From assembly GCA_001780955.1 (NCBI GenBank), contig MFJR01000007.1:75053-139052 (forward strand): DNA of 64,000 nt, read 5' to 3'. Under the pieces are notes generated by a model. It saw only the letters and a list, made by a program, of their open reading frames with translations, was not told the origin of the DNA and did no database searches. Shown one piece after another: positions 5,679-46,436 of this stretch. The DNA comes from Candidatus Gottesmanbacteria bacterium RIFCSPLOWO2_01_FULL_39_12b (GTDB lineage Bacteria > Patescibacteriota > Microgenomatia > 2-02-FULL-39-11). The position numbers and the translations under genes are program-made. The first letter of the stretch is position 1. The number at the start of each line of letters is the position of its first letter.

Positions 5679-6461
5679 ATGTTTAAAGATATAGTAGTTT
5701 TTTTGCGCTATAAGGATTTGTTAATTAATCTGACAGAGAGAGAAATTAAAGCTCGCTATAAACAGTCCATACTGGGCTATTTTTGGGTTATTCTTAACCC
5801 TTTTTTGCAAATGCTGGTAATGACTTTTATCTTTTCTATTGTTATGAAAGTACCCTCATTAGGAGTACCTTACCCAATATTTTTATATGTAGCTCTCCTA
5901 CCATGGAACTTTTTTTCCAACTCGCTTTCTTCTTCAATGAATAGTTTGGTTGCAAATAGTTCATTGATTACAAAAATATATTTCCCAAGGGAAATCTTGG
6001 TTTACTCTACGGTTTTTGCGAAAGTAATCGATCTTATACTGGCAGTATCTATACTTGTGATATTTATGATAATTTATAGAATACCAGTTTCAACTAGAAT
6101 TCTATGGGTCCCGGTTATATTTATAATCCAACTTATTTTTACCACCGGCCTCTCTCTGATACTGTCAACTTTTAATCTATTTTACAGAGATATACAGTAT
6201 TTAGTAAGTTTAATGTTAATGTTATGGATGTATTTAACACCCGTAATCTATCCGGTTGAAATAATTCCAAACGAATACAGATTCATTCTCTCCTTAAACC
6301 CTATGGCTGTATTTGTTAATGCATATAGACAGGTTATTCTAGGCGGCGGCGATCCAAACCTTAATAGTTTAATAATAGGTGTGATTGTATCTTTATTTGT
6401 TTTCCTGGCAGGATTTTCGATATTCAAGAAATTAGAGGGAATTTTTTCTGATGTAGTTTAA
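5679..6461 (+). CDS. ABC-2 type polysaccharide/teichoic-acid export permease (Wzm/TagG/KpsM-like)
   Basis: 260 aa, 6 TM. N-terminal LTEREIKARYKQSILGYFWVILNPFLQM is the classic ABC-2 signature. It lies immediately upstream of the ATPase. Confidence 0.85.
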   Translation: MFKDIVVFLRYKDLLINLTEREIKARYKQSILGYFWVILNPFLQMLVMTFIFSIVMKVPSLGVPYPIFLYVALLPWNFFSNSLSSSMNSLVANSSLITKIYFPREILVYSTVFAKVIDLILAVSILVIFMIIYRIPVSTRILWVPVIFIIQLIFTTGLSLILSTFNLFYRDIQYLVSLMLMLWMYLTPVIYPVEIIPNEYRFILSLNPMAVFVNAYRQVILGGGDPNLNSLIIGVIVSLFVFLAGFSIFKKLEGIFSDVV

Positions 6462-6465
6462 ATTT

Positions 6466-7215
6466 ATGGATAATAATCAGTCAAATCATACTCAAGTACT
6501 TAATATTAATAGAGTTTCTAAAAAATATTTCCTTCAGAAGCAGAAAACTTTTAAAGAATTCTTACCCTCATTAGTGTTAGGAGGTACTTGGGCTAAGGAT
6601 TTTTGGGCTTTGAAGTCAATCAATATCTCCCTAAACAAAGGAGATTCATTAGCGGTGGTTGGTAAAAACGGCGCTGGTAAATCTACACTGTTAAAACTTA
6701 TTGCCGGCGTTACCTCTCCGACTGTAGGTAAAATTATGGTTAAGGGCCGTGTAGCTCCCCTGATTGAATTGGGTGCAGGTTTTCACCCTGAACTGACGGG
6801 AAAAGAGAATATCTATCTGAATGGGTCGATTTTGGGTATGAAAAGGGGCGAAATTGACAAAAAATATCATGAGATCGTTGAGTTTTCAGAACTGCGAGAG
6901 TTTATAGATCAACCGATCAAGCATTATTCTTCTGGAATGTATATGAGGTTAGCCTTTTCAGTGGCCATTGCGGAAATGCCGGAAATACTGCTTATCGATG
7001 AAATCTTTGCGGTTGGGGATGCTGATTTTCAAAAAAAATGTCTTGACAAATTGAAAGAATTTCAAAAGAACAAAGTTTGCATGATTATTGTTAGTCATTC
7101 CCTTGAACAAATAAAGAATTTTTGCAATTTGGGTATGGTTCTTAGGAAAGGTGAGCAGGTATTTTTCGGTGAGATTAATCAGGCAATTGAGACTTATAAG
7201 AAGTTATTAGATTAA
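6466..7215 (+). CDS. ABC transporter ATP-binding protein (Wzt/TagH/KpsT-like), short form without C-terminal carbohydrate-binding domain
   Basis: Walker A GKNGAGKST, ABC signature YSSGMYMRLAFS, Walker B ILLIDE, H-loop IVSH. 249 aa. Confidence 0.9.
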   Translation: MDNNQSNHTQVLNINRVSKKYFLQKQKTFKEFLPSLVLGGTWAKDFWALKSINISLNKGDSLAVVGKNGAGKSTLLKLIAGVTSPTVGKIMVKGRVAPLIELGAGFHPELTGKENIYLNGSILGMKRGEIDKKYHEIVEFSELREFIDQPIKHYSSGMYMRLAFSVAIAEMPEILLIDEIFAVGDADFQKKCLDKLKEFQKNKVCMIIVSHSLEQIKNFCNLGMVLRKGEQVFFGEINQAIETYKKLLD

Positions 7216-7218: not shown

Positions 7219-8571
7219 ATGAATATAGCCTTTGATATTAGTCCTTTAATTTCGGCATCAGGATCATTTGGGGATAAATCTGGGGTATATCGGTACACTT
7301 ACGGTCTAATTTCTAGTCTGAGTAGTCTCCTATTAAGGATAGATAAAAAGTCGAAAATCTTCTTATTTTCTTTTAATCGCGATCTTCTGACCTATCCTTT
7401 AAATCCAGATATCTTGCAAGTCTTATCCGCTAGAAATATTACTTTTTTTAAAAAAGTCCCCAAATTTAAATTAGATGAATCAGGCGACTTTTTCACAGAT
7501 AGCTACGTTTTCAAATCTATCCATACTCTTGTAAAAAACCTATTTAAGTTGAATATGAAATCTATGTATGAAAATTACATCAATAACATCCGTTTTAAAA
7601 AATATATTAAGTTTTTACGAAACGAGTTTGCTAGACTAAAAATAAATATAATCTATCATTCAGAGACCGCTTTTTATCCATTACAAGAGTATATTAATGT
7701 TATGACAATATATGATTTAACTCCAATTATTTCTCCTGAAATGCATAGAGATGAAAATATTGACCTGCAAAAAAGAAAGCTTAAATTCGCCAGTAAATAC
7801 TGTCAGGGAATAGTTTGCATCAGTAAATCAACAAAAAACGATTTGCTTAGAAATTCAAACATCTGGAAAAATAAAAAAATTATTGTGGCTTATCCCGGAT
7901 TAGATCAGGTATTTGCTAATGCATCAAAAAAACCGGTAGATTCAAACAAACTATTTCGCAATCTTAATTTGATTATTAAGTCAAGAAACCAAAAAATCCA
8001 AAAAAATAAATATTTACTATACTATGGAACTTTTGAACCTCGTAAGAACTTAATTTATCTGATTAAAGCCTTTATAAATTTACAAAACGAAAGAGAAATT
8101 CCGTCTAATTATAAGTTGATATTAATTGGAGGAGAAGGATGGGGAGGAGTGAAAGGATCGATAAATAATTATATTGACGAACAATTTCCAATTGACAAGG
8201 ATAAAAATATCATATTATTGGATTATTTAAGTGATAAATACGTGATCGAATTCATCAAAAATTCATACTGTGTCATATATCCCAGTTTGTATGAAGGATT
8301 TGGCTTGCCTGTTCTGGAAAGTATGTCGTTAGGAAAGGCGGTAATTTGTTCTGATAATTCATCTTTGCCTGAAGTAGGAAATAGATCAGTTTTATACGTT
8401 GACGCTTCGGATTATTATGATATTAAGCAAAAAATAAAATACCTGATCAATAATCCAGAGATTGCTAAATCAATGGGTCTTGAAGGGATGGAACAAAGTA
8501 ACAAGTTCAGGTGGGAAAAAACGGCAATAAAAGTATATAAATTTCTTACTGAGTTAAGTAATGAATATTAG
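7219..8571 (+). CDS. GT4 family glycosyltransferase
   Basis: YEGFGLPVLESMSLGKAVICSDNSSLPEV in a 450 aa GT-B. Confidence 0.8.
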   Translation: MNIAFDISPLISASGSFGDKSGVYRYTYGLISSLSSLLLRIDKKSKIFLFSFNRDLLTYPLNPDILQVLSARNITFFKKVPKFKLDESGDFFTDSYVFKSIHTLVKNLFKLNMKSMYENYINNIRFKKYIKFLRNEFARLKINIIYHSETAFYPLQEYINVMTIYDLTPIISPEMHRDENIDLQKRKLKFASKYCQGIVCISKSTKNDLLRNSNIWKNKKIIVAYPGLDQVFANASKKPVDSNKLFRNLNLIIKSRNQKIQKNKYLLYYGTFEPRKNLIYLIKAFINLQNEREIPSNYKLILIGGEGWGGVKGSINNYIDEQFPIDKDKNIILLDYLSDKYVIEFIKNSYCVIYPSLYEGFGLPVLESMSLGKAVICSDNSSLPEVGNRSVLYVDASDYYDIKQKIKYLINNPEIAKSMGLEGMEQSNKFRWEKTAIKVYKFLTELSNEY

Positions 8572-8583
8572 CTTATAATCGCG

Positions 8584-9705
8584 ATGAAGATAGGAATTGA
8601 TATCAGCATGCTGGCATACACAGGAAGTGGGGTAGCAACATACACCTATAACTTAGCAAAGAACTTGCTAATATATGATAAGAAAAATGAATATATTCTC
8701 TTCTACAGCTCATTTAGAAAGCCAAGGGGTTTTTATTACCTGATAGAATTGGAGAGACTGGGAGGGAAAATAATTAACCTCATCCTTCCGCATACATTTC
8801 TCAAATTATGCTGGAATAAATTTAGTTTGCTTCCTGTTGAGCGCTTTATAGGTAAAGTCGACGTTTTTCATTCTTCTGATTATCTTAGACCACCTTTATT
8901 TAAGAATACTTTAGGAATTACGACGATTCATGATCTGACCTGGAAAATATTCCCTGAATTTCATACCAAAGAAATAATAGAAGCTCATGAAAATAAACTG
9001 GAAAAGACAGTAATCTTTGGTGATATAATTATCGTTGATTCTTATAACACTAAAAAAGATCTTATTAAATATTATCCTCAATTGCACCCAAAAAATATTT
9101 TCGTTATCTATCCCGGAGTCGATAATAAGTTTAAACCCATTAAAGATGAGCAGTTAGTAAAAAAGAAATTGACTAAGTATGGTATTGATACCAGAAATAG
9201 ATTTTTGCTCTATGTTGGAGCAATAGAACCGCGTAAAAATTTAGTTACCGCCATAAAGTTATATTACGAGTTGATAAAAGACAGAAGCTATTCCGATTTT
9301 AATTTTATTATAGTCGGCCGGGCTGGTTGGAAAAACGAAGAGGTTTTCCAAACAATCAATAATTTAAAATTAACTGATAAAGTGAAGATTATTGGCTTTG
9401 TTGAGGATCAAGATCTGCCATATATTTATAACGCGGCGCAGGTTTTTATTTATCTATCAAAATACGAAGGATTTGGATTGCCGCCTCTGGAAGCAGGCAA
9501 ATGCGGGATTCCTTCCCTGATTTACCTTAATTCTTCGCTTCAGGAAATTTTTCCTTCCGATTATCCGTTTGCCCAAAAAGGTAGCGAATTGGAAACTTTA
9601 ATTGATTTAATTAAAATACGGTACAAACCGTATCAAAAACATTTGGAAAAATTTAGCTGGAAATCTTACTGCGATATATATCTAGATATCGTCAAAAGTC
9701 ATTGA
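8584..9705 (+). CDS. GT4 family glycosyltransferase
   Basis: YEGFGLPPLEAGKCGIPS plus an N-terminal GT-B domain. Its 3' end overlaps the convergent gene by 7 bp. Confidence 0.8.
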   Translation: MKIGIDISMLAYTGSGVATYTYNLAKNLLIYDKKNEYILFYSSFRKPRGFYYLIELERLGGKIINLILPHTFLKLCWNKFSLLPVERFIGKVDVFHSSDYLRPPLFKNTLGITTIHDLTWKIFPEFHTKEIIEAHENKLEKTVIFGDIIIVDSYNTKKDLIKYYPQLHPKNIFVIYPGVDNKFKPIKDEQLVKKKLTKYGIDTRNRFLLYVGAIEPRKNLVTAIKLYYELIKDRSYSDFNFIIVGRAGWKNEEVFQTINNLKLTDKVKIIGFVEDQDLPYIYNAAQVFIYLSKYEGFGLPPLEAGKCGIPSLIYLNSSLQEIFPSDYPFAQKGSELETLIDLIKIRYKPYQKHLEKFSWKSYCDIYLDIVKSH

Positions 9706-11915: not shown

Positions 11916-11924
11916 TGGTAAATA

Positions 11925-14144: not shown

Positions 14145-14151
14145 AGCGAGG

Positions 14152-20416: not shown

Positions 20417-20447
20417 AATATGGTAAAAATTACCTTATTGTATTACA

Positions 20448-22307
20448 TTAATCTATAAATTTCCTCTCATATAAATCATAGACCCCATCATTCATGATCT
20501 TTTTGAAATCTACTTTTGAGATTATAGAAGATATTGCCGGGGTATATTTTTCATTATTTTTAAGGATTATATATTTCACATTTAAACTATTTAGTTCTTG
20601 GAGGACTAGAGAAGAAGTTATAGCGAATGGTATTATATTCGGCTCCTTTGGTTTTTCTGAATAAGGATTATAATTCCCTTTATCTATTATCTTCGCTATA
20701 TAATTTATAAATCTCATATTCTTGTAACCAATAAATACTTCTTCTGGTACTCGGGCAAGATATCCGCCGATGATCGGTTTTCCGTGAATAAGCTGTCCAT
20801 ACATAGGGAGTATTCCATGGACAAAACCAATATAATTAAAACCATCTCTTACTGTAAAAGGAACATCTAATACTGTCTTTTGGTCATTTTGATTTTTTAA
20901 ATACTGGTAAATTTTTACAGGGGCATTCTCAACCATCTTTTGGGAAATAGTATAAAATTGATCAAAAAAGAAAATAACAAACAAACATACTAATAAAATT
21001 ATCTGTTTTTTCTTACTTATCCTTGTCAATACAAAATTAATCACATAAGCAGTGACAATGCAGGCAAAAAATACGAAAGCCGGAGTAAATCTGGCGGTGG
21101 CTCTAATAGTTGATAAGCCTGGAATATAATGAAGTAATAAAAAGGGGAGAGGTAAGACAACGGAGACACCATCAAGATTGATAAACCAGCGATTAAATAT
21201 TTTCAAAAATGGACCCAACATCAAGATATAAAAAAAACTACTAACTATAAAATAGGGTTTTATCAGTTGCCATAATTTTTGAGGAAATCTATTGAAGATT
21301 TTCAATATAGTAACAGTTAGATAAATCAATACGATGATGATTCCTGGATAACTAAATCTTTCCAGGCTGTTAAGGAAAAAGTATTGATATTTTACAAATA
21401 ACGGAACAATTGAGGTGATTTTATTGAAAATAATATTATACAGAGGATTAAATTCACTCGGTGTTATAAAACTTGCCAAGTCAGATGATAAAGTTATTGA
21501 TCCTCCAAATCCGGGAGTTTTAACTAGTCCTTGGGTTTTGATTAAATTATAAACTGATAATATCCAGGGAATAAGGAAAAAAATTGCTGAAATAATAGAT
21601 AAAAACAAATAGGTGACATTTCTTGATAAAAGTTTTAAAAACTCCTTTCTGTCAGTAAAAAACCAGTATCCTGCAGAAAATAACAATCCAAGCACTATTG
21701 TAAAAAAGTAATAGAAATTACTCAAAAGAACCGTTGCCATGCATAATCCTAAAACCAGACAAAAGATAAATCTTTCTATTGTTTTATTTGATTCAAATAA
21801 TTTTTTTAGTGCTATAAATACTAAAGGAAAAAAGTATATAGATATATAAGCATAATGACCCAGAACTCTATGAGATAAAAATGGTGTGAATCCAAAAATT
21901 AAACTAACTAATATTGATAAGTATTGATCGATCTTTAATTTTCTTAGTAATAAATACATAAAAAAATTATTTAAGAAAAATCCAAATAAGATAATAATCA
22001 GTAGAGATTTATGGGAATTAATAAGTGGCCGGAAAATAAAAAACGGTAAAACATAAGCAGTATTGGGATCATTCAGGGAAAAATTAGTAGTAAATGGGTA
22101 TAGAATAGATTTTGTGACAAAAGGATTTTTAAATTGAAGTATATTTTGGTAACTTGTCTCAATTAAATATTCTGTAACGATATTATCACTGACCATTATC
22201 CTATTTCCAAAAAGTTCACCCCAGAGAGAAAAATTAAAAATTAAATTAATAAAAAGGAAAACAAAAATAGGCAATATAAAACGAAGTTTTTTCTTCATTT
22301 TAAGCAT
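20448..22307 (-). CDS. Polytopic membrane protein, paralog family 2 member b, C-terminal domain absent
   Basis: 619 aa. NPFVTKSILYPFTTNF, GFGGSITLSSDLASFITPS, PLPFLLLHYIPGLSTIRATAR. Terminates where member c's C-domain begins. Confidence 0.55.
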   Translation of the reverse strand: MLKMKKKLRFILPIFVFLFINLIFNFSLWGELFGNRIMVSDNIVTEYLIETSYQNILQFKNPFVTKSILYPFTTNFSLNDPNTAYVLPFFIFRPLINSHKSLLIIILFGFFLNNFFMYLLLRKLKIDQYLSILVSLIFGFTPFLSHRVLGHYAYISIYFFPLVFIALKKLFESNKTIERFIFCLVLGLCMATVLLSNFYYFFTIVLGLLFSAGYWFFTDRKEFLKLLSRNVTYLFLSIISAIFFLIPWILSVYNLIKTQGLVKTPGFGGSITLSSDLASFITPSEFNPLYNIIFNKITSIVPLFVKYQYFFLNSLERFSYPGIIIVLIYLTVTILKIFNRFPQKLWQLIKPYFIVSSFFYILMLGPFLKIFNRWFINLDGVSVVLPLPFLLLHYIPGLSTIRATARFTPAFVFFACIVTAYVINFVLTRISKKKQIILLVCLFVIFFFDQFYTISQKMVENAPVKIYQYLKNQNDQKTVLDVPFTVRDGFNYIGFVHGILPMYGQLIHGKPIIGGYLARVPEEVFIGYKNMRFINYIAKIIDKGNYNPYSEKPKEPNIIPFAITSSLVLQELNSLNVKYIILKNNEKYTPAISSIISKVDFKKIMNDGVYDLYERKFID

Positions 22308-22366
22308 TATACTACGAAAATGTCTTAATCCTAGAGAACGAATTAAATCAATTTATTTCAAAATTC

Positions 22367-24625
22367 TCACTCGATTTTTAAAGAATAAAATTTCAGTCCA
22401 AGTTCTCTTTCATCTTTATTGTCAGGAAAAACTGTAGATGGTTTATGAGTTTTTGAGAGTTTAAATGTAATTCTATGTATTTCTGGTTCTAAAGAGTATG
22501 GAACATCTATACGATACACCCCTTTTTGGGAGAGTACTCGTATCTTATCAATATAGACTTCGTCTAGATAAACTTGCACGTACTGTTCATTTTGGAATGA
22601 CTCTGTTTCAAAAATTATCGTTGGTTTTATCCTGTTGATCGTTTTGACAAAGACTGTAGCTATTTTCCCATAAGTCCATCGAAACCCATCTTCCGCAACG
22701 CTAAATCCAGAAACGATAAATAATTCGTCTCCTGTCGTCCCGAAGCGTATATCTGTAAATAGCACTGCGCGCAATTCTCGTTTCAGAAGTATATATGGTG
22801 TCTCGCTTGACACTATTTTATATCCGATTTCTTCAAGTGTTTGTCGTATAAGCTGCGAGTATAGTTCGTCATTCTTAAGAACAACATATTTAATATCTAA
22901 AAAATCTAGTTCTTTCTGCAGAGTTGTCACGTTGGCATTATAAACTGTGACGATCGGGAGAGTCGGCTGCTCCTTATATAGATCGTAGTTGCCTTTATCG
23001 ATTATTTGCGCAGTATGACCGATAAACGGAAGATTAGAATAGTAAGAAAAAATTGATGAATCTACACGAGAAAGGTATCCGCCAATAATCGGCTTATCAT
23101 GTATCAATGTTCCAATGGTGGGAGTATTCGCGTGAATGCTGCCAATATACTTAAAGCCATCCCTTACAGTAAATGGAATTTCCAGAACAGTTGACTTGTC
23201 AGGATCTTTTTTAATATAGTCGTAAATTTTTAGAGGAAGATACTTATCAGATCTTTGAGGTATAAAATATGCTTGATCAATTACCACAACAATAAATAAA
23301 AGTGTAAAAATTGTGAAATAAAATTTTCTATTTAATCTGCTAAACACAAAGGATAATAAATAAGCAGTGACGATAGTGGCGAAGAACACAAAAGCAGATA
23401 TAAATCTTGCTGGGGCTCTTACAGTGGTAAGTCCGGGAAAATAGTGAAGAAGTAGGAATGGTAAAGGAAGAAAAATATGAATTCCTTCATCAAGAGTGAT
23501 AAACCATCTGTTAAATATCTTTAAAAAAGGACCTAAGGTAAGAAGTGCAAAAAATAGACTCGCTAAAAAATGAGGTTTTAATTTATACCATATTTTTTTA
23601 TGTATTTTATTTTTGAAAAGGAAAATTAAGATATATGCAGTAATGATAATCAACCCAGGAGAGACGGACCTGTTATTGTTAAAGAAAAAAGAATTTGCTA
23701 ATTTGGCAAAAAAAATTGACTTACCCCTAATATCGTTCATGATAGATGCATAAAATGGATTATACTCACTTGGCGTGACAAAATTTATCAGATCCGAAGA
23801 TAATTCTATTGCGCCTCCAAAACCGGCTACTTTATATTCTTCATTAAATAAGCGTAGATTTAATACTGTTAAAAACCAAGGAGTAAGGATAACAAAAAAG
23901 GAAAGTAATGAAAGTAGGAGATAGAATACATTCTTTATAATAAATTGATAGAAAATTTGCTTGAAAGATAAAAAGAGATAATAAACACAGTAAAAAAACA
24001 TAGCTAATACGACCATCAGGAAATAATAAGGATTAGCAAAATAAGTTAGAGCCAATAGTATTCCATAGGTTAGAGAATAAATAGATTTTTTGATAGTTGA
24101 GTTTGATTCTAGAAAAAACAAAATATTTATAAATAAGAGAGGAAAGAAGTAGTAAGTAGTATACGTATAGTGTCCTAATATTCTGTATGATAGAAAAGGT
24201 GAAAAAGCAAATATTAGGCTGCAAAATGCAGAAACATAACTCCTTATTTTCAGTTTTCTTAAAAGTAGATACATACATATATTTGCCCAAAATATATTAG
24301 TAAGAACGATAATAAGAGTTGATTGGTGAATATTAAAGAAAGGGCGTAAGATAGTTAATGGAAAAAAATTGATTAACCAAGTATCATCCAATGAGAGATT
24401 TGTTTTAAATGGATAAAAAATACTGTCGGTTATAAAAGGATTCTCAAATTTTAATATCTTTTGATAAGCGTTTTCCGTAAAAAATTCATAATTTATACCA
24501 TCATTGATGCTAATTCTTTGAGGGTAGTAATTTAAAAAAATATCCTGAATAAAAGGTAAATTAAAAATTATAATAAGAAGAATTACTCCAGCAAAAAAGA
24601 GGTATAAAAATTTTTTACTTCCCAT
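22367..24625 (-). CDS. Large polytopic membrane protein, paralog family 2 member c, with C-terminal extracytoplasmic domain
   Basis: 752 aa. NPFITDSIFYPFKTNL, GFGGAIELSSDLINFVTPS, PLPFLLLHYFPGLTTVRAPAR. C-terminus VSGFSVAEDGFRWTYGK...HKPSTVFPDNKDERELGLKF. Confidence 0.6.
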   Translation of the reverse strand: MGSKKFLYLFFAGVILLIIIFNLPFIQDIFLNYYPQRISINDGINYEFFTENAYQKILKFENPFITDSIFYPFKTNLSLDDTWLINFFPLTILRPFFNIHQSTLIIVLTNIFWANICMYLLLRKLKIRSYVSAFCSLIFAFSPFLSYRILGHYTYTTYYFFPLLFINILFFLESNSTIKKSIYSLTYGILLALTYFANPYYFLMVVLAMFFYCVYYLFLSFKQIFYQFIIKNVFYLLLSLLSFFVILTPWFLTVLNLRLFNEEYKVAGFGGAIELSSDLINFVTPSEYNPFYASIMNDIRGKSIFFAKLANSFFFNNNRSVSPGLIIITAYILIFLFKNKIHKKIWYKLKPHFLASLFFALLTLGPFLKIFNRWFITLDEGIHIFLPLPFLLLHYFPGLTTVRAPARFISAFVFFATIVTAYLLSFVFSRLNRKFYFTIFTLLFIVVVIDQAYFIPQRSDKYLPLKIYDYIKKDPDKSTVLEIPFTVRDGFKYIGSIHANTPTIGTLIHDKPIIGGYLSRVDSSIFSYYSNLPFIGHTAQIIDKGNYDLYKEQPTLPIVTVYNANVTTLQKELDFLDIKYVVLKNDELYSQLIRQTLEEIGYKIVSSETPYILLKRELRAVLFTDIRFGTTGDELFIVSGFSVAEDGFRWTYGKIATVFVKTINRIKPTIIFETESFQNEQYVQVYLDEVYIDKIRVLSQKGVYRIDVPYSLEPEIHRITFKLSKTHKPSTVFPDNKDERELGLKFYSLKIE

Positions 24626-24765: not shown

Positions 24766-25416
24766 ATGTATAATAAATGGAGATTACTCCGTGAAATGAA
24801 AAGACGCATTGTTAATCAATTTCTTATCCGGAAGACTTCAAAGAAAAAACATTGTTATCTAAAACTCGGCAATAATGTTTATCTTCCCATTTTATCTGAC
24901 ATTAAGACTGCAGTTACTATTGGCAACGGTACCGGTATAAACGGAAAAATCACTATCATGGGAGGATCAAAGGTTTCCATAGGGAAGTACTGTGCTATTG
25001 GATCGGACGTGAAAATAATTTCCTCTAATCATGATGTACGATATGCGAATTTACAATCTAAGTTTCAACTAGAATATTTTGCAATGAGTTTAGATAGTAC
25101 CAAAGGTGAAGTAAAAATTGGAAATAATGTTTGGATAGCAGATTCTGCAATCATTCTATCGGGAGTAACTATTGGGGATGGAGCAGTTGTTGCGGCAGGG
25201 GCAGTTGTGGTAAAGGACATTCCCCCGTTTTGTATAGCTGCAGGAATTCCCGCTGTGATAAAAAGAGAACGATTCTCAAAAAAGATCGTAGATAAGCTTT
25301 TGGCGATTCAATGGTGGGATTGGGATGAAAAGATGATAAAACGAAATAAAGATTTTTTTACGCTAGATCTCACTAAAAATCCCAATTTTTTACTAGAAAA
25401 GATTATTCATAATTAG
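24766..25416 (+). CDS. Left-handed beta-helix (hexapeptide-repeat) sugar O-acetyltransferase (LacA/NodL/WbbJ-like)
   Basis: IGNNVWIADSAIILSGVTIGDGAVVAAGAVVVKDIPPFCIAAGIPA: typical LbH repeats plus the C-terminal cap. Confidence 0.8.
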   Translation: MYNKWRLLREMKRRIVNQFLIRKTSKKKHCYLKLGNNVYLPILSDIKTAVTIGNGTGINGKITIMGGSKVSIGKYCAIGSDVKIISSNHDVRYANLQSKFQLEYFAMSLDSTKGEVKIGNNVWIADSAIILSGVTIGDGAVVAAGAVVVKDIPPFCIAAGIPAVIKRERFSKKIVDKLLAIQWWDWDEKMIKRNKDFFTLDLTKNPNFLLEKIIHN

Positions 25417-27236
25417 GGTCGAGAGAATAGTGTTTTTATTCTTCTTATCTTCTCAGAAGCCTTAAAAAGTTTAGTCGAGGTAATTCTTTCCATATCTTCG
25501 CGTAATCTTATGATTTTGCTACTCAAGTTTCTATTCTTTTCTTCCAACTCTGTTAATTTTTTTGCCGAGAGAGATTTTTCCATAACATCTTCAACGTTAC
25601 AATGTTTCACAAGTTCCAGAAGATTGCTTTGATTTTTTATAGTTTGCTGCAAAAAACCCTGAATGTTTTCAAGTATACGTTTCTTACTATCCTTGGTTAG
25701 AATGTGCTGGTAGGCAGATTCTTCCTCAATAAAATTTTCGATATCGTTCTGCGTACAGACAATTCCTGTCGATTCCCGCAGGAAATCCACAATTGCATTT
25801 TGACAAGGAATACGATCATATATTTTATAAAGGTGGGGTAAGTTCATACTGAAAAGATAGGCGACATTTCTCAGAAAAACAGATAGAAGTGGAATTGGTT
25901 TCCTCTTGATATTCTCTACATCAAAGTAGACGAATTTATTATGTACAAGCGATACATTAGAAAGAGTTGCTTCATAATACCGATGACCTATAAATCCCTT
26001 AGGATCTGTATGGCGTTGCAGGAACTGGTAAAACCTGCTGAAAAGTGCAACCCATTCGCCTTTAAAATTTTCTGAGAGTGCCGCTCGCATGAATGAAAAA
26101 ATATAGGGTTCCGGATAAAGGTCTTGGTAGAGAGCTTTCTTTTTTCCATATAAGTATTTCTTACGCACTTTGAGCTCTTTATCTTTTTCTCCTATCGATA
26201 TTTCACTTTGTCGATTCACGCTACGGCTCAGCTGATAGCGCTTAATAACCCAATCAGCTTTCGGAAGATTTTTCTTTCCCTTGCTTGCAAAAACTAAAAA
26301 GGAGTTAGAGAAACTTTCTAGAAGATCATTCTTGAAAAACTCAGAGAGAAGAAGAAATTCATCTATTATCCGGATCGGTGCTCGATAATAATCTCTGGAG
26401 TATTCCTTAAAGAGGAAATGACTTAAATCTGTTGTGTTTTTCCACTGCAGGGGATGATGAAAAAGAGCAAAGGGTGTTTTATAATCCGGAAAAGGAAAGA
26501 ACCATTCTTGGTAACGTAAATTGTTTTCGTTAAACAAATTTATAAGCTCCTTTCGGCTGAAAGTTTTTGGCCCTTTCTTGTTAGGGAAATTGTGAAGGCT
26601 CTCCAGAAATAGAGATGTATGATCTTCGGTAAGTGGGACAAAATAGCGCAATCCAAGTCTATTTTCGATAGCGAGAATCAATACTCCATCGTCCTTGAGA
26701 AAGGAAGCAGCCGTATGAATAAAAGATGAGGCGGGAGAAGGCGACACAGCAATATTTTTCATAAGGGCTGCATATTCTAATACTCCTACAACGACAACAA
26801 AATCAAACTTTTTGGATGGATATAAATTGAATATATCCTCGGCAATAACTTTCACATTACGAAGTCCTCTGCAGCGTTTTGCACATCCAAGGGCTCTTAT
26901 TAGTGGGGGTTCTACTGCATATACTTCTTTTGCGCATTCGCCAAGTAGCCGTGTTAATCCTCCAAAACCTGCACCAATCTCCAATACACTTTTCTCCGTA
27001 AAAAGTTCTTTAAATGGCAGAAGGAGAGAGTTTCGATATTTGGAAAAATGAGATTCTGTAGACCAATCTACGATTTGGGAGTGTAACTCTTCGCTGAGAG
27101 CGGATACGTCTTTTGCCTTATCGAGAACTTCTAGGATTATTTTTTCTTTTTCAGTTCCCTCATTGTACCAAAAATTGGAAGATTGATTATTTGATGCAGA
27201 AGAGATAACGGATGCTTTATCTATTGGAATACTCAT
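25413..27236 (-). CDS. Multidomain protein: class I SAM methyltransferase domain, a ~300 aa uncharacterised region, and a C-terminal predicted coiled coil. Candidate glycan chain-terminating or chain-modifying enzyme
   Basis: 607 aa. MTase motif I VLEIGAGFGGLTRLL with post-I acidic AVEPP. C-terminal heptad-like KKLTELEEKNRNLSSKIIRLREDMERI. Confidence 0.65.
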   Translation of the reverse strand: MSIPIDKASVISSASNNQSSNFWYNEGTEKEKIILEVLDKAKDVSALSEELHSQIVDWSTESHFSKYRNSLLLPFKELFTEKSVLEIGAGFGGLTRLLGECAKEVYAVEPPLIRALGCAKRCRGLRNVKVIAEDIFNLYPSKKFDFVVVVGVLEYAALMKNIAVSPSPASSFIHTAASFLKDDGVLILAIENRLGLRYFVPLTEDHTSLFLESLHNFPNKKGPKTFSRKELINLFNENNLRYQEWFFPFPDYKTPFALFHHPLQWKNTTDLSHFLFKEYSRDYYRAPIRIIDEFLLLSEFFKNDLLESFSNSFLVFASKGKKNLPKADWVIKRYQLSRSVNRQSEISIGEKDKELKVRKKYLYGKKKALYQDLYPEPYIFSFMRAALSENFKGEWVALFSRFYQFLQRHTDPKGFIGHRYYEATLSNVSLVHNKFVYFDVENIKRKPIPLLSVFLRNVAYLFSMNLPHLYKIYDRIPCQNAIVDFLRESTGIVCTQNDIENFIEEESAYQHILTKDSKKRILENIQGFLQQTIKNQSNLLELVKHCNVEDVMEKSLSAKKLTELEEKNRNLSSKIIRLREDMERITSTKLFKASEKIRRIKTLFSRP

Positions 27237-27245: not shown

Positions 27246-28508
27246 TCAAATTTTCTTCACGATGAATCCTAGGATTACCTTTTTAATATACGTGATATGT
27301 TCGAAGCTTATTCCTGGAAAAACTCCGAGCCAAAAGGCTCCATTGAGAGCCACATCAGAATTTTCTACACTACCTGCTATTCTGTATTTGGTATGTTTAT
27401 ATGCAGGATGCCGAAGTAAATTACCAGAAAAAATTGTCCGAGTCCCAATTTTGTTTTCTTCTAGGTATTGAGTAAATTCATTTCGAGTAAATGGTGCGTT
27501 TTCTTTTACTATTGCCGGGAATCCAAACCAACAGGGATCTTCTTTCTCGGAAAGTTCCGGCAGGATAAAATATTTTTTGTACTGATCAAAAAACGCTCGC
27601 AGCTGAGCGTAATTTTCTTTCCGTTTTTTGATAAATTGGGGAAGTTTTTTTAGCTGTGCGACACCTATTGCGGCTTGAAAGTCGGTTAATTTCAGATTGT
27701 ACCCAATTTGGGTATACGTATACTTGTGATCGTACCCGAATGGGAGATCACCAAATTGCCAGCCGAAACGTTTTCTACATGTATTATCTTTTCCCGTATC
27801 ACACCAGCAATCTCTACCCCAATCTCGAAATTGCCTGATAGATCTATGAATAAGAGGATTATTGGTGATAACGGCTCCTCCTTCTCCCATCGTGATTTGA
27901 TGAGCAGGATAAAAGCTGTATGTTGCAATATCACCATACGTGCCGACAAGTTTTCCATTCCATCGGGAACCAAGAGCATCACAGCAATCCTCGATAACCC
28001 AGAGATTGTATTTCTTCGCAATTCGCGTTATCTGGGTAAGGTTGTACGGAATTCCCAGAGTATGAGCTACCATGATAAGTTTCGTCTTTTTCGTAATTGC
28101 TTTTTCAATTTTTCCAATATCGATATTGAATGTTTTAACATCGATATCAATAAAAACCGGTGTGAGTCCATATTGAATTCCGGGATTAACGGTCGTAGGG
28201 AAAGCAAGAGGTATGGCGATGTATTCATCACCACTTTTGAGGGCTCGATCCTTAAAAACGTTGGAGGTGAGAGAAGCTAGAGCGACAAGGTTGGCAGAAG
28301 AGCCAGAGTTGACTAGAGAAACGTATCTTATTCCCATAAAATTTCTGAAGTCCTTTTCAAACTGTTTCCCGAATTCTCCCTCTGTCCACCAGCCGTCACG
28401 GGCTACTTTTATAGCGTTGTTTATCTCTTCTTTGTCGAAAACTTTACCCGAAACGGGAATGTAGGTTCGACCTGGTATAAACGTTTTCTTCATTATTGAA
28501 ATCCCCAT
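27246..28508 (-). CDS. ddhC: CDP-4-dehydro-6-deoxyglucose 3-dehydrase (E1; RfbH/DdhC/AscC family, PMP- and [2Fe-2S]-dependent)
   Basis: 420 aa with near-collinear similarity to RfbH. SGSSANLVALASLTS, FPTTVNPGIQYGL, SFYPAHQITMGEGG (His replaces the PLP lysine), and cysteine cluster RDWGRDCWCDTGKDNTC (C-x-C-x7-C). Then YDHKYTYTQIGYNLKLTD. Confidence 0.85.
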   Translation of the reverse strand: MGISIMKKTFIPGRTYIPVSGKVFDKEEINNAIKVARDGWWTEGEFGKQFEKDFRNFMGIRYVSLVNSGSSANLVALASLTSNVFKDRALKSGDEYIAIPLAFPTTVNPGIQYGLTPVFIDIDVKTFNIDIGKIEKAITKKTKLIMVAHTLGIPYNLTQITRIAKKYNLWVIEDCCDALGSRWNGKLVGTYGDIATYSFYPAHQITMGEGGAVITNNPLIHRSIRQFRDWGRDCWCDTGKDNTCRKRFGWQFGDLPFGYDHKYTYTQIGYNLKLTDFQAAIGVAQLKKLPQFIKKRKENYAQLRAFFDQYKKYFILPELSEKEDPCWFGFPAIVKENAPFTRNEFTQYLEENKIGTRTIFSGNLLRHPAYKHTKYRIAGSVENSDVALNGAFWLGVFPGISFEHITYIKKVILGFIVKKI

Positions 28509-29291: not shown

Positions 29292-30254
29292 ATGTTTAAA
29301 TGGAAAAAATTAGGAAGAGTTTTTAACCCTACGAAATATAAGGATAAAAGTTGGATGCGCGAATTTGCACAAGCACCTTCTGTTCTAATTTTTGATAAAT
29401 TTGTCAGGGTTTTTTTTGCCTGCAGACCTCTACGTGATAAAAACAGACAATACGTCAGCTATACAGGTTTTGTTGACTTAAATAGATACAATTTATTTGA
29501 AATAATTAATATCTCTAAAAGGCCGATTTTACAGTTAGGGGAAAGGGGAACTTTTGATGAATTTGGTACTTATCCTGTGTCAGTAATAAGAAAAGATAAT
29601 GAAATAATAGCCTATTATGGTGGATGGACAAGATGCGAATCAATTCCTTATACCGTATCCATTGGAGTGGCTAAAAGCCATGATAATGGAGTACATTTTA
29701 CTAAATTTGGCAGAGGTCCATTACTATCCTCCAATATTCTTGATCCATATGTCGTAAGTGGTCCAAAAGTCAGAAGGTTTAACGAGCGATGGTACTTGTG
29801 GTATGTGGCTGGAACGAAGTGGTTAGAGACTAATAGTAAACCAGAGGCAGTCTATAAAATCAGAATGGCATATTCAGTTGATGGAATTAATTGGACAAGA
29901 AATGGTAAGAATTTGATTGAGAATAAAATAGAAAAAAATGAGTGTCAGGCAAGTCCGGATGTAATTTATTATAAAGAAAAATATCATATGTTTTTTTGCT
30001 ATAAATATAGTCTGAATTTTAGAAATAACAAGAGAGGTTATAAAATTGGTTATGCATATTCTGATGATCTGACGCATTGGATAAGGGATGATACAAAAGC
30101 AGGTATAGATATATCAAGAAAAGGTTGGGATGGTGAGTCAATCGCTTATCCCCATGTTTTTGAACTCGACAATAATCTTTATATGCTTTATTTAGGAAAT
30201 CAAGTTGGTAGATATGGTTTTGGATTGGCACAACTAGAAGATTATAAACAATAA
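29292..30254 (+). CDS. Beta-propeller glycosidase/phosphorylase-superfamily protein (GH130/GH43-like, DUF377-like), tandem copy 1
   Basis: 320 aa. WKKLGRVFNPTKY...FAQAPSVLIFDKFVRVFFA with recurring W/Y-rich blade-like segments. Paralog of the next ORF. Confidence 0.4.
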   Translation: MFKWKKLGRVFNPTKYKDKSWMREFAQAPSVLIFDKFVRVFFACRPLRDKNRQYVSYTGFVDLNRYNLFEIINISKRPILQLGERGTFDEFGTYPVSVIRKDNEIIAYYGGWTRCESIPYTVSIGVAKSHDNGVHFTKFGRGPLLSSNILDPYVVSGPKVRRFNERWYLWYVAGTKWLETNSKPEAVYKIRMAYSVDGINWTRNGKNLIENKIEKNECQASPDVIYYKEKYHMFFCYKYSLNFRNNKRGYKIGYAYSDDLTHWIRDDTKAGIDISRKGWDGESIAYPHVFELDNNLYMLYLGNQVGRYGFGLAQLEDYKQ

Positions 30255-30258
30255 AAAT

Positions 30259-31259: not shown

Positions 31260-31817
31260 ATGAATATTAAAGGGAAAATAGTAACTTTAAGAGCTATAGA
31301 AGAGACTGATCTCAATCTTCTTCATAAATGGGCAAATGATCCTGAAATACAGGATATTATGGGCGTTATTCACTTCCCAAGTTCCATGGATTTCCATAGA
31401 TTATGGTTTCAAAACCTTAAGAGTGATCTTTTAAATCAACGGTTTGCTATTAATATGTCTGGTATTGGTTTGATTGGAATTTCAAGTCTAATGAGTATTG
31501 ACTGGCGAAATAATCATGCATGGCATGGAATAATGTTAGGAGACGCAAAAATTCGGGGAAAAGGATATGGTGTTGATGCAGTTATGGCTACGATGCGGTA
31601 TGCGTTTGAAGAATTACATTTTGAACGGCTTGATGGTTCAATAATTGAAAATAATAACATATCTTATTCCTTTTATTGTAATAAGTTAGGTTGGAAAGAA
31701 GAGGGTTTGAGAAGAAACTGGTATTTCAGGAGAGGTCGGTATTGGGATCAAATAATTGTAGGTATCACAAAGAAAGACTATGAGCAACTTGTGCAAAAAA
31801 CGAGATATTGGGACTAA
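31260..31817 (+). CDS. GNAT family N-acetyl/acyltransferase (RimJ/RimL-like)
   Basis: 185 aa. KIVTLRAIEETDLNLLHKWANDPEI...LHFERLDGSIIENNNISYSFYCNKLGWKEEGLRRNWYF: GNAT fold motifs. Confidence 0.75.
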   Translation: MNIKGKIVTLRAIEETDLNLLHKWANDPEIQDIMGVIHFPSSMDFHRLWFQNLKSDLLNQRFAINMSGIGLIGISSLMSIDWRNNHAWHGIMLGDAKIRGKGYGVDAVMATMRYAFEELHFERLDGSIIENNNISYSFYCNKLGWKEEGLRRNWYFRRGRYWDQIIVGITKKDYEQLVQKTRYWD

Positions 31818-33115: not shown

Positions 33116-33128
33116 AAAACTTAAACCT

Positions 33129-46419: not shown

Positions 46420-46436
46420 TAGCAAAAGGAGAAATT

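What the first reader, a model, noticed from the sequence alone, without database searches (positions are those of the whole stretch)
25413..27236. Methyltransferase with long extension and C-terminal coiled coil: WbdD-like chain-terminator candidate paired with a Wzm/Wzt exporter
**What the sequence shows**
- The 607 aa protein has a canonical class I SAM methyltransferase domain at the N-terminus.
- It has ~300 aa of unassigned sequence.
- It ends in a heptad-like charged segment (LTELEEKNRNLSSKIIRLREDMERI).
- The island also encodes an ABC-2 exporter (5679-7215). Its ATPase is the short form, without a terminal-residue-binding domain.

**Established background**
- In ABC-transporter-dependent O-antigen systems (E. 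coli O8/O9a WbdD) a methyltransferase or kinase-methyltransferase with a C-terminal coiled coil caps the glycan and sets chain length.

**Interpretation**
The domain order here mirrors that logic without the recognisable kinase motifs.
Basis: partly seen in the sequence, partly recalled or inferred. Interest (0 to 1): 0.55.

Follow-up and report, generated by a model that had tools for sequence, protein, structure and literature searches.

The report
Glycan-capping methyltransferase-kinase, divergent CPR variant
This gene encodes a divergent relative of a recently characterised enzyme that stops the growth of cell-surface sugar chains by capping them with methyl-phosphate; here it sits in a tiny-genome 'candidate phyla radiation' bacterium, carries a changed catalytic residue, and is paired with an exporter that lacks the usual cap-reading module.

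Summary
ORF 25413-27236 (-) encodes 607 aa with four parts:
- an N-terminal class I SAM methyltransferase;
- about 300 aa with no Pfam, NCBIfam or PDB sequence match;
- a four-heptad coiled coil (aa 561-585);
- a basic amphipathic tail.

The unassigned region is not featureless. It is the cryptic kinase-like domain of the family typified by Klebsiella pneumoniae O7 ORF6(O7-N). That enzyme is an experimentally proven methyltransferase-kinase that caps a rhamnan with methyl-phosphate (PMC11231755). Query and ORF6(O7-N) share 32% identity over 322 aa (E 4e-44), and both fit one family HMM.

Relatives usually lie directly after wzm-wzt: 19 of 62 loci, and all 19 of those Wzt are long forms.

Three features differ here:
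- The Asp whose D441A mutation kills the O7 kinase is Glu (E422). A small subclade shares this.
- The Wzt is 249 aa without a carbohydrate-binding module. The same is true for 3 of 4 subclade contexts, against 1 of 23 elsewhere.
- The host is Candidatus Gottesmanbacteria, a monoderm, so the glycan is not LPS O-antigen.

The protein is not a WbdD family member, although it probably works like WbdD. I rate it a divergent variant of a known kind, of moderate interest.

The parts
25413..27236 (-). Whole gene: 607-aa stand-alone methyltransferase/kinase-like/coiled-coil protein. It is identical to OGG26700.1, annotated 'hypothetical protein', from Candidatus Gottesmanbacteria.
   Evidence: ORF. 100% identity to P0253/OGG26700.1. 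AF2 model has mean pLDDT 88.4 and pTM 0.85.
26496..27167 (-). N-terminal class I SAM methyltransferase domain (aa 24-247). It includes motif I VLEIGAGFGG, E109, Y155 and the family-invariant AIEN...EDH segment (E191, N192, E204, D205, H206). Y62 of the family (Y66 of ORF6-O7) is Ser here.
   Evidence: Pfam PF13489 covers aa 72-242, E 2.7e-12. The SAM-site residues of ORF6-O7 are given in PMC11231755. Translation checked.
25617..26495 (-). Cryptic kinase-like domain (aa 248-540). It starts with the invariant PFPDYK and continues through NSFLV, R338 and V357-x-K359.
   Evidence: No Pfam or PDB sequence hit. The AF2 model of aa 250-545 has pLDDT 88.7. 48 of the 50 best Foldseek PDB hits are kinase-fold proteins, but all are weak (E at least 0.29; best TM 0.30/0.36 to PRPK 7szc). 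The domain is homologous to the ORF6-O7 kinase domain.
25956..25973 (-). Catalytic-loop motif E422-A-T-L-S-N427, the counterpart of family D-C-I-P-x-N and kinase HRD-x-K-P-x-N. The catalytic Asp is replaced by Glu.
   Evidence: Translation gives EATLSN. Column 422 holds D in 316 rows, E in 12 and N in 3; column 427 holds N in 328 rows. ORF6-O7 D441 lies in KFIDAVP according to the mutagenesis primer and aligns to this column. hhalign places it on D190/N195 of APH(3')-IIa, though the match is weak (E 0.12).
25914..25922 (-). D439-V-E441, the counterpart of family I-D-x-E-W (the metal-binding 'DFG' Asp equivalent). It is conserved in the query.
   Evidence: Translation gives DVE. Column counts are D 320 and E 325. 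The 12-residue spacing from N427 compares with 13 in APH(3')-IIa (N195 to D208).
25479..25595 (-). Predicted long helix (aa 548-586) holding a 4-heptad coiled coil (aa 561-585).
   Evidence: The heptad score beats 300 of 300 shuffles. AF2 predicts helix H548-586. DMPK_coil gives a weak hit.
25416..25478 (-). Basic amphipathic C-terminal tail (aa 587-607, net charge +5/+6). It is a degenerate form of the family's S-x-S-W-R-x-T-x-P-L-R plus basic tail. I infer that it is a membrane- or partner-binding element.
   Evidence: Hydrophobic moment is 0.53-0.56 and charge +5/+6. Family C-termini are shown. The function is inferred by analogy with the membrane-associated amphipathic helix of WbdD (PMC11231755).
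27246..28508 (-). DegT/DnrJ/EryC1-type sugar aminotransferase, 9 bp upstream on the same strand. It is probably co-transcribed with the target.
   Evidence: Pfam PF01041, E 3.5e-95. The 9-bp gap is shown. The best promoter-like site on the minus strand is 28558-28529 (consensus match only).
5679..6461 (+). Wzm-type ABC-2 permease (260 aa).
   Evidence: PF01061, E 2.1e-18.
6466..7215 (+). Wzt-type ABC ATPase, short form (249 aa), without a Wzt_C carbohydrate-binding module.
   Evidence: PF00005 covers aa 49-181 and is the only domain. Long Wzt proteins in family loci carry PF14524.
7219..9705 (+). Two GT4 glycosyltransferases directly after wzt. They are candidate chain-building enzymes of the exported glycan.
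   Evidence: PF00534, E 1.4e-25 and 3.8e-26. Their role is inferred from position.
24766..25416 (+). Hexapeptide-repeat acyltransferase, convergent with the target. Its stop overlaps the target's stop by 4 bp.
   Evidence: PF00132, E 5.7e-14. Coordinates.

Best explanation
The gene encodes a stand-alone member of the MTase-kinase glycan-terminator family whose characterised prototype is K. pneumoniae O7 ORF6(O7-N). That family is probably the 'Lcin_0519' kinase-MTase family predicted in 2022.

Proposed mechanism:
1. The protein oligomerises through its short coiled coil. It sits at the cytoplasmic face of the membrane through its basic amphipathic C-terminus.
2. It acts on the non-reducing end of a polyprenol-linked glycan that glycosyltransferases of this island are extending.
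3. The kinase-like domain (ATP) phosphorylates the terminal sugar, and the SAM methyltransferase methylates that phosphate. The cap blocks further elongation and so sets chain length.
4. The finished glycan is exported by the Wzm/Wzt ABC transporter at 5679-7215.
5. Because this Wzt has no carbohydrate-binding module, the cap is probably not read by the transporter. The cap would then serve length control only.
6. Because the host is a monoderm CPR bacterium, the glycan ends up on a non-LPS acceptor such as an S-layer or other protein, a lipid or the wall. Transfer may use one of the many polytopic membrane proteins in the island.

What is shown: the domain anatomy, homology to the proven terminator, conservation of most active-site residues, and linkage of relatives to wzm-wzt.

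What is inferred: activity on this organism's glycan, the chemistry of the cap (Glu replaces the catalytic Asp), membrane association, and which exporter it serves.
For: - Homology. BLASTP to ORF6(O7-N), reconstructed from SI Fig. 9, gives 32% identity over 322 aa, E 4e-44. That sequence scores 479.6 bits (E 1.5e-147) on the HMM built from the query's family, and its D441 aligns to query position 422.
- Exact primer-encoded peptides. RVLEIGAGCGAITRFLG and KFIDAVP match the family consensus ILELGCGCGAITRYLGE and fvDCiPxN.
- Experimental basis for the prototype. ORF6(O7) converts an acceptor to phospho- and methylphospho-product. D441A abolishes phosphorylation. Orthologs include forms that end after the coiled coil (PMC11231755).
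- Fold. AF2 models are confident (pLDDT 88.4 and 88.7), and 48 of 50 top Foldseek hits for aa 250-545 are kinase folds. The only hhalign match to APH(3')-IIa aligns D422/N427/D439 with D190/N195/D208 (the APH sequence was verified against 1nd4).
- Retained residues. The query keeps K359, R338, N427, D439, E441, R456 and E506, and the MTase invariants.
- Context of the subclade:
  - P0001: wzm-wzt(Wzt_C)-P0001.
  - P0002: wzm-wzt-GT4-P0002-GT2-GT4.
  - P0190: wzm-wzt-P0190, with overlapping stop and start.
- Context of the wider family. In 62 GTDB loci with enough upstream DNA, 19 have wzm-wzt directly upstream and 24 have the pair within 10 kb.
- Coiled coil and basic tail.
Against: - The residue equivalent to the experimentally essential D441 is Glu (E422). 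Y62 (Y66 of the O7 SAM site), P425 and W442 are also changed. Kinase activity, and therefore a methyl-phosphate cap, is uncertain.
- All characterised terminated systems have a Wzt with a C-terminal CBM (PMC11231755). Here Wzt has none.
- The target is 18 kb from wzm-wzt, on the other strand, in a two-gene unit with an aminotransferase. The island also has a Wzx-type flippase. The link to the ABC route in this genome is therefore by family precedent, not by adjacency.
- The coiled coil has only about 4 heptads, so a ruler function like WbdD's is doubtful.
- No glycan structure is known for this uncultured organism.
Confidence: 0.6

Rival explanations
1. Methyl-only terminator. In the Glu-422 subclade the kinase-like domain is catalytically impaired and serves as an acceptor-binding or scaffold module. 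The methyltransferase would cap the terminal sugar hydroxyl directly, as the methyl-only WbdD of E. coli O8 / K. pneumoniae O5 does.
For: - The catalytic Asp is replaced by Glu throughout the subclade (query, P0001, P0002, P0003, P0190), and P425 and W442 are lost in most of its members.
- There is precedent that a methyl cap alone suffices (O8/O5 WbdD; PMC3482155, PMC11231755).
- P0001 still sits next to a Wzt with Wzt_C, so some cap is made in this subclade.
Against: - N427, D439, E441, K359, R456 and E506 remain conserved in the query. That argues for a working nucleotide/metal site rather than a decayed one.
- Glu retains a carboxylate and recurs independently in otherwise canonical motifs (P0160 ECTPYN, P0167 ECMPSN).
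- The prototype's MTase acts on phosphate, not on a hydroxyl.
- Members with truly degenerate motifs (P0203, P0142) lie outside glycan loci.
Confidence: 0.2
2. Non-terminal decorating enzyme. The protein adds methyl-phosphate or methyl groups to internal residues, or to a different glycan or lipid made by this very large island. On this reading it has no role in chain termination or in the Wzm/Wzt route.
For: - The gene is not adjacent to wzm-wzt and is paired with a sugar aminotransferase.
- The island encodes many GTs, several other methyltransferases and a Wzx flippase, so more than one product is likely.
- Wzt lacks a CBM.
- About 60% of family loci show no Wzm/Wzt within 10 kb.
Against: - The only characterised member is a terminator.
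- The three closest relatives with usable context are all inside wzm-wzt operons.
- A C-terminal coiled coil is described as a consistent marker of terminating enzymes (PMC11231755).
Confidence: 0.15
3. Protein methyltransferase resembling the rickettsial outer-membrane-protein lysine methyltransferases PKMT1/PKMT2. The C-terminal domains would recognise a protein substrate.
For: The top Foldseek hits for the full-length model are PKMT1 (5do0) and PKMT2 (5dpl), with E 1.7e-9 to 2.6e-9 and alignments of 559-610 columns.
Against: - TM-scores are only 0.24-0.30 with rmsd above 18 A, so the match is driven by the shared MTase fold.
- The C-terminal-domain profile finds no PKMT in the PDB even at E up to 10.
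- PKMTs are absent from the 60 best profile hits.
- Genomic context is glycan biosynthesis throughout.
Confidence: 0.03
4. Small-molecule kinase/methyltransferase, for example antibiotic modification like the amicoumacin kinase AmiN or the aminoglycoside phosphotransferases, that happens to lie in a sugar island.
Against: Similarity to these enzymes is at fold and motif level only. The family's characterised member acts on a glycan terminus. The coiled coil, basic tail and wzm-wzt linkage have no rationale for a soluble small-molecule enzyme.
Confidence: 0.02

Closest known systems
Klebsiella pneumoniae O7 ORF6(O7-N), bifunctional methyltransferase-kinase terminator (Whitfield laboratory, J Biol Chem 2024, PMC11231755)
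   Same: - Homologous over the MTase and the start of the kinase-like domain: 32% identity over 322 aa, E 4e-44. Both fit one family HMM.
- Same domain order: MTase, unannotated kinase-like domain, coiled coil.
- Shared motifs: GxGxG, AIEN..EDH, PFPDYK, NSFL, D/E-x-x-P-x-N.
- The paper notes orthologs that 'ended after the coiled-coil', like this one.
   Different: - The catalytic Asp (D441) is Glu here, and Y66 is Ser.
- No Ig-like CBM lies between kinase and coiled coil (secondary structure).
- There are no C-terminal GT2 polymerase modules.
- The partner Wzt lacks a CBM.
- The host is a monoderm CPR bacterium, not an enterobacterium.
'Lcin_0519' kinase-methyltransferase family predicted in the Legionella pan-kinome survey (Sci Rep 2022, PMC9758233)
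   Same: - Described as MTase plus an atypical kinase without an alpha-C helix, commonly with a coiled coil.
- Neighbours are Wzt, Wzm and a GT in 27% of neighbourhoods.
- Present in K. pneumoniae, Serratia, Pseudomonas and Xanthomonas.
- My census is similar: 31-39% of loci with wzm-wzt. A Legionella locus (L040) carries a family member after wzm-wzt.
   Different: Identity of the two families was not tested by sequence, because no Lcin_0519 sequence was available. That family was reported with the typical catalytic residues, whereas the query has Glu at the D166-equivalent position.
E. coli O9a / K. pneumoniae O3 WbdD (kinase-methyltransferase, coiled-coil molecular ruler; PMC3482155)
   Same: Same logic and order of parts: N-terminal MTase, then a kinase, then a C-terminal coiled coil and a membrane/partner-binding end. 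It caps a polyprenol-linked glycan made by an ABC-transporter-dependent pathway.
   Different: - WbdD's kinase is a eukaryotic-type protein kinase fold, stated to be quite different from the O7-type domain.
- WbdD is not among the listed hits of any search here.
- WbdD's C-terminal region is about 250 aa (residues 460-708), against about 60 aa here.
- The WbdD system has a Wzt with a CBM.
E. coli O8 / K. pneumoniae O5 WbdD (methyl-only terminator)
   Same: Precedent that a methyl cap without phosphate terminates a chain. This is relevant if E422 disables the kinase.
   Different: It belongs to the WbdD lineage, not this family.
Geobacillus stearothermophilus WsaE (S-layer glycan; N-terminal O-methyltransferase fused to two rhamnosyltransferase domains; PMC2943079)
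   Same: - Monoderm precedent. An ABC-transporter (wzm-wzt)-dependent glycan is capped by 2-O-methylation.
- The terminator gene overlaps wzt.
- The glycan is finally transferred to an S-layer protein by a polytopic membrane transferase.
   Different: WsaE is fused to GT domains, and no kinase is reported. Homology to the query was not tested.
APH / AmiN-type small-molecule kinases (for example APH(3')-IIa 1nd4, AmiN 6sul)
   Same: - Kinase-like fold.
- Catalytic-loop D-x4-N followed 12-13 residues later by the metal-binding Asp, in register.
   Different: There is no significant sequence similarity (hhalign E 0.12; no Pfam APH hit). The substrate class and the domain fusion differ.

Membership tests
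ORF6(O7-N)-type MTase-kinase glycan terminators | Significant full-length sequence homology to the characterised prototype | tested here: met
   32% identity over 322 aa, E 4e-44. The prototype scores 479.6 bits on the query-family HMM over residues 8-446. Caveat: the prototype sequence was rebuilt from a machine-read figure. The primer-encoded peptides are exact.
ORF6(O7-N)-type MTase-kinase glycan terminators | N-terminal class I SAM MTase with GxGxG and the SAM-site residues (Y28, Y66, G91, G93, E112, Y158 of O7) | tested here: inconclusive
   Y24, G88/G90/G92, E109 and Y155 are present. The Y66 equivalent is Ser62 in the query only (family Y in 308 rows).
ORF6(O7-N)-type MTase-kinase glycan terminators | Kinase-like domain with the catalytic Asp (D441; D441A is inactive) | tested here: not met
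   The query has Glu422 at that column. The rest of the motif is present (N427, D439, E441, K359, R456).
ORF6(O7-N)-type MTase-kinase glycan terminators | Coiled coil following the catalytic domains | tested here: met
   Four clean heptads at 561-585, better than 300 of 300 shuffles. AF2 predicts a helix at 548-586. The coil is short.
ORF6(O7-N)-type MTase-kinase glycan terminators | Encoded in an ABC-transporter-dependent glycan locus (wzm-wzt) | tested here: met
   wzm-wzt lie at 5679-7215 in the same island, but 18 kb away on the other strand. Closest relatives are inside wzm-wzt operons.
ORF6(O7-N)-type MTase-kinase glycan terminators | Partner Wzt carries a C-terminal carbohydrate-binding module that reads the cap | tested here: not met
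   The window Wzt is 249 aa with ABC_tran only. Long Wzt proteins next to other family members have PF14524.
ORF6(O7-N)-type MTase-kinase glycan terminators | Phosphorylation then methylation of the non-reducing terminal sugar; loss alters chain length or export | not testable with these tools
   This needs enzyme assays or glycan structure. The organism is uncultured.
WbdD (E. coli O9a/O8) family | Sequence or structural homology to the WbdD MTase plus eukaryotic-type kinase | tested here: not met
WbdD (E. coli O9a/O8) family | Long coiled coil acting as a molecular ruler, plus a C-terminal polymerase-recruiting region | tested here: inconclusive
   Only about 4 heptads plus a 20-aa basic tail, against residues 460-708 in WbdD. 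Partner binding is untestable here.
Protein-kinase-like / APH superfamily (fold level) | Bilobal kinase fold with catalytic-loop D..N and a metal-binding D | tested here: inconclusive
Rickettsial PKMT protein-lysine methyltransferases | Homology beyond the MTase domain | tested here: not met
   Foldseek TM is 0.24-0.30 with rmsd above 18 A. The C-terminal profile finds no PKMT at E up to 10.

The most novel reading that the evidence does not exclude
The Glu-422 subclade (query, P0001, P0002, P0003, P0190; apparently from small, low-GC genomes) may be a functionally distinct branch of the O7-type terminators. In this reading, capping has been uncoupled from export gating. The enzyme would work with CBM-less Wzt transporters (3 of 4 known contexts, against 1 of 23 in the rest of the family). 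It would use an altered active site (Glu as base, Pro and Trp of the motif lost) to install a different cap, such as methyl only or another phospho-substituent. The product would be a non-LPS surface glycan of a monoderm CPR bacterium. That would be the first terminator-controlled ABC-transporter glycan pathway described in the Candidate Phyla Radiation, and a counter-example to the rule that every terminated glycan has a CBM-bearing Wzt.
Probability: 0.25. Interest if true: 0.55.

Novelty: new variant of a known kind. Interest (0 to 1): 0.4.

Why it matters
Chain termination is how ABC-transporter-dependent pathways set the length of surface glycans. So far it has been worked out only in a few Proteobacteria, plus one Geobacillus S-layer system.

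This locus extends the recently validated O7-type methyltransferase-kinase terminator to the Candidate Phyla Radiation, whose cell surfaces are essentially uncharacterised. The record currently calls the protein 'hypothetical', so the result gives it a concrete, testable function.

It also offers a natural experiment on two points of the current model:
- whether the catalytic Asp of this atypical kinase can be a Glu;
- whether a terminator can operate with a Wzt that has no cap-reading module.

If both hold, chain-length control and export gating are separable, which matters for glycoengineering with these modules. If neither holds, the gene is simply one more divergent family member.

Tried and rejected
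1. [quoted passage not shown] Only generic MTase domains matched and WbdD was not among the listed hits.
2. A profile of the middle domain alone (A3) against the PDB and, member by member, against Pfam at E up to 10. Nothing meaningful appeared. Kinase assignment therefore cannot rest on sequence databases.
3. Foldseek of the whole model. The list was swamped by MTases. I judged the top hits, PKMT1 and PKMT2, to be MTase-driven (TM about 0.25) and rejected them as an explanation.
5. P. aeruginosa CPA methyltransferases PA5457 and PA5459 as possible relatives. The paper describes them as smaller, lacking the interaction domains and not behaving like WbdD, so I did not pursue them.
6. Contexts of family members with fully degenerate kinase motifs (P0203, P0142), hoping to see whether kinase-dead forms still pair with Wzt_C. 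They lie outside glycan loci and are uninformative.
7. Similarity of the Wzt ATPase domains, to see whether short Wzt proteins of the subclade form a group. All are 41-48% identical, with no signal.
8. BLAST of the 763-aa membrane protein next to P0001 against the window's seven large membrane proteins. No similarity.
9. The genome-collection scan used patterns that the query's own sequence does not match. It therefore did not recover the source genome or close relatives. The organism was identified through the exact-sequence cluster look-up instead.


Full report
**1. The observation**

- Pfam finds only class I SAM-methyltransferase models (best PF13489, aa 72-242, E 2.7e-12). A sub-threshold DMPK_coil hit covers aa 559-585. 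NCBIfam finds only weak generic MTase matches.
- The quoted heptad segment is aa 561-585. L561, L564, N568, L571, I575, L578, M582 and I585 occupy a/d positions. The heptad score (0.825) exceeds the maximum of all 300 shuffles (mean 0.43).
- An AlphaFold2 model built on a 48-sequence alignment is confident (pLDDT 88.4, pTM 0.85). It shows a helix at 548-586 followed by a helix at 589-605.
- The last 20 residues are strongly basic (+5/+6) and amphipathic.
- The ABC-2 permease (5679-6461) and a 249-aa ABC ATPase with no Wzt_C domain (6466-7215) are also as described.

**2. The 'unassigned' 300 residues**

A homology search returned more than 1,389 proteins, mostly 550-700 aa, annotated only as methyltransferases. 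The best listed hit was 39% identical.

The alignment shows family-wide invariant motifs far beyond the MTase domain:
- PFPDYK (248-253), NSFLV (311-315), R338 and V-x-K359;
- f-v-D-C-i-P-x-N ... I-D-x-E-W at query positions 422-442.

The D-x4-N spacing, followed 12 residues later by a second Asp, is that of the kinase catalytic loop and metal-binding Asp.

Evidence for a kinase-like fold:
- A separate model of aa 250-545 is confident (pLDDT 88.7).
- 48 of its 50 best Foldseek matches in the PDB are kinase-fold proteins (ethanolamine kinase, PRPK, ERK2 and others). Every match is individually weak (E at least 0.29, TM at most 0.36).
- hhalign against APH(3')-IIa gives a single, non-significant alignment (E 0.12). 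It places D422, N427 and D439 on D190, N195 and D208.
- Sequence databases see nothing in this domain.

**3. The known relative**

A literature search led to the 2024 study of Klebsiella pneumoniae O7 (PMC11231755).
- In vitro it phosphorylates and then methylates O-3 of the terminal rhamnose. D441A abolishes phosphorylation.
- The authors note orthologs that 'ended after the coiled-coil'.

The supplementary primers give exact peptides:
- RVLEIGAGCGAITRFLG carries G91 and G93.
- KFIDAVP carries D441. D441 is therefore the first Asp of the family's D-x-x-P-x-N motif.

I rebuilt the first 447 residues of ORF6(O7) from the machine-read alignment figure. A few letters are lost.
- BLASTP to the query gives 32% identity over 322 aa, E 4e-44.
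- The rebuilt sequence scores 479.6 bits on the HMM of the query's family, and its D441 column is query position 422.

The query therefore belongs, by homology, to this terminator family. A 2022 survey had predicted what is very probably the same family ('Lcin_0519'). That family has an MTase plus an atypical kinase lacking helix alpha-C, often a coiled coil, and Wzt/Wzm/GT neighbours in 27% of cases (PMC9758233). I could not test this identity by sequence.

**4. Context in relatives**

In 80 loci from GTDB genomes plus loci of the nearest homologs:
- 19 of 62 loci with enough upstream DNA have wzm-wzt immediately upstream of the family gene, and 24 have the pair within 10 kb.
- All 19 of those Wzt are 408-549 aa. 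Every one checked carries Wzt_C (PF14524).
- About half the family proteins are 1,000 aa or longer (GT fusions like ORF6-O7). The rest are stand-alone proteins of 548-784 aa, like the query.
- Stand-alone members typically end in a helical or coiled segment, an S-x-S-W-R-x-T-x-P-L-R motif and a basic tail. The query has a degenerate version (TSTKLFKASEKIRRI).

**5. What is different here**

(a) The catalytic residue.
- At the column of the essential Asp, the query has Glu (E422, EATLSN).
- Across 349 aligned rows the column is D 316, E 12, N 3. The E rows are 8 distinct proteins.
- Five of these form the query's own subclade: the query, P0001, P0002, P0003 and P0190 (32-46% identity to one another, against about 27% to other members). 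Three others are independent.
- The query also has Ser for the Tyr equivalent to the Y66 SAM-site residue, Leu for P425 and Asn for W442.
- It keeps K359, R338, N427, D439, E441, R456 and E506, and all MTase invariants.

(b) The exporter.
- Wzt is the short form.
- Within the subclade, P0002 and P0190 sit in operons with short Wzt proteins (244 and 250 aa). P0190 overlaps the wzt stop. P0001 follows a 408-aa Wzt with Wzt_C.
- Counting the window, that is 3 of 4 short. The rest of the family has 1 of 23 short (L041). My hand calculation from these counts gives Fisher p of about 0.005. The numbers are small and not phylogenetically independent.
- The 2024 paper states that all terminated examples have a CBM-bearing Wzt.

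(c) The host.
- The protein is 100% identical to OGG26700.1 of a Candidatus Gottesmanbacteria bacterium (Patescibacteria, Microgenomates).
- CPR belong to a monoderm clade (bioRxiv 10.1101/2021.05.31.446380), so the product is not an LPS O-antigen.
- The monoderm precedent is the Geobacillus S-layer glycan. [quoted passage not shown]

(d) Gene position.
- The gene is not next to wzm-wzt. It follows a DegT-type aminotransferase by 9 bp on the minus strand.
- The best minus-strand promoter-like site lies upstream of that aminotransferase.
- The 64-kb window is one large glycan island that also holds a Wzx-type flippase.

**6. Most likely mechanism, and its rivals**

I commit to the following (confidence 0.6). 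This is a chain-terminating cap enzyme acting at the cytoplasmic face on a polyprenol-linked glycan.
- The kinase-like domain phosphorylates the terminal sugar, and the MTase methylates that phosphate.
- The short coiled coil oligomerises the protein, and the basic tail holds it at the membrane or on a partner.
- Export is by Wzm/Wzt, which here cannot read the cap.

Shown: anatomy, homology to a proven terminator, conservation of most catalytic residues, and operon linkage in relatives. Inferred: activity, cap chemistry, membrane association, and which export route it serves in this genome.

Rivals:
- A methyl-only cap with a pseudokinase scaffold (0.2).
- A non-terminal decorating enzyme (0.15).
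- A PKMT-like protein methyltransferase (0.03). This rests only on a low-TM Foldseek hit.
- A small-molecule kinase/MTase (0.02).

**7. Comparison with WbdD**

The protein probably works like WbdD: MTase, kinase and coiled coil in the same order, with the same kind of pathway. Membership fails:
- WbdD does not appear among the listed hits of any sequence, profile or fold search.
- The literature describes the kinase domains as quite different.
- WbdD's C-terminal region spans residues 460-708, against about 60 residues here.

**8. Verdict**

The protein is a divergent relative of a family that was predicted in 2022 and proven in 2024.

It is not categorically new. Three features make it a variant worth a modest follow-up: Glu at the catalytic position, a CBM-less Wzt partner, and a CPR host. 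Interest 0.4.

Limits of this analysis:
- The prototype sequence was rebuilt from OCR text.
- No glycan chemistry exists for this uncultured organism.

Noticed in passing
window 9699-24625 (-): Seven tandem genes encode large polytopic membrane proteins (603-752 aa, 8-14 predicted TM segments). They form two paralog groups: 9699-18170 at 30-46% identity and 18170-24625 at 32-46% identity. The groups share a C-terminal domain of about 130 aa. None has a Pfam hit except a weak YfhO match for 20448-22307. They may be GT-C-type extracytoplasmic glycosyltransferases or glycan transferases.
   Followed up: partly
window 61112-62419 (+): A Wzx-type flippase (Polysacc_synt, E 1.3e-19) lies in the same island as Wzm/Wzt. 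The island therefore encodes two export routes and probably more than one glycan.
   Followed up: no
window 29292-31221 (+): Two tandem 320-aa paralogs give weak GH32-N / GH130 (beta-propeller, mannoside-phosphorylase-like) hits inside a biosynthetic cluster. Their role is unclear.
   Followed up: no
window 31260-34361 (+): A GNAT acetyltransferase, a 3-hydroxyacyl-CoA dehydrogenase, a 186-aa protein with no Pfam hit and a thiolase-like enzyme lie in a row. This looks like a pathway supplying an acyl (for example 3-hydroxybutyryl) group for an amino sugar. The aminotransferases are at 27246-28508 and 36084-37208.
   Followed up: no
window 39878-41713, 45322-47231, 55170-56877: A TPP-dependent enzyme, a 3-dehydroquinate-synthase-like enzyme, an HpcH-type aldolase and a split transketolase are embedded among GT and epimerase genes. 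They suggest synthesis of an unusual (branched or higher-carbon) sugar.
   Followed up: no
loci L081 (P0002), L083 (P0190), L082 (P0001): The nearest relatives sit in compact wzm-wzt-terminator-GT operons on low-GC contigs (26-42% GC). Their neighbours are tRNA synthetases, type IV pilus genes, TruB and MscL. Two of the three have a CBM-less Wzt, and in L083 the wzt stop overlaps the terminator start.
   Followed up: yes
C-termini of stand-alone family members (for example P0007, P0009, P0028, P0077, P0110): A recurrent C-terminal signature follows a coiled-coil-like helix: S-x-S-W-R-x-T-x-P-L-R and then a basic hydrophobic tail. It is degenerate in the query (TSTKLFKASEKIRRI). It may be a membrane- or partner-docking motif. 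I did not find it named in the papers read.
   Followed up: partly
locus L060 (6.7-kb contig, match 1146-2027): A family member (37% identity to query aa 24-318) lies on a contig binned as Candidatus Micrarchaeota archaeon (DPANN). This is either lateral transfer or a binning artefact.
   Followed up: no
full-length model m7e4efabd39b5: The best Foldseek PDB hits for the whole protein are the Rickettsia protein-lysine methyltransferases PKMT1/PKMT2 (5do0, 5dpl; E about 2e-9, aligned over 559-610 columns). TM is only about 0.25. I judged the match MTase-driven, but a distant relation of the extra domains was not excluded.
   Followed up: partly
loci L086 (P0203) and L087 (P0142): Family members whose kinase motif is fully degenerate (ECTPRN...F-x-S, or N-I-I-P-E-N...S-x-N) lie outside any glycan or Wzm/Wzt context. 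One is next to thiamine genes and the other next to a pectate-lyase-like gene. This hints at a different use of the scaffold.
   Followed up: partly
window 62287-63132 (+) versus 61112-62419 (+): The listed TTG-start ORF overlaps the flippase gene by 133 nt. The GT2 domain begins at aa 47, so the true start is probably further downstream.
   Followed up: no
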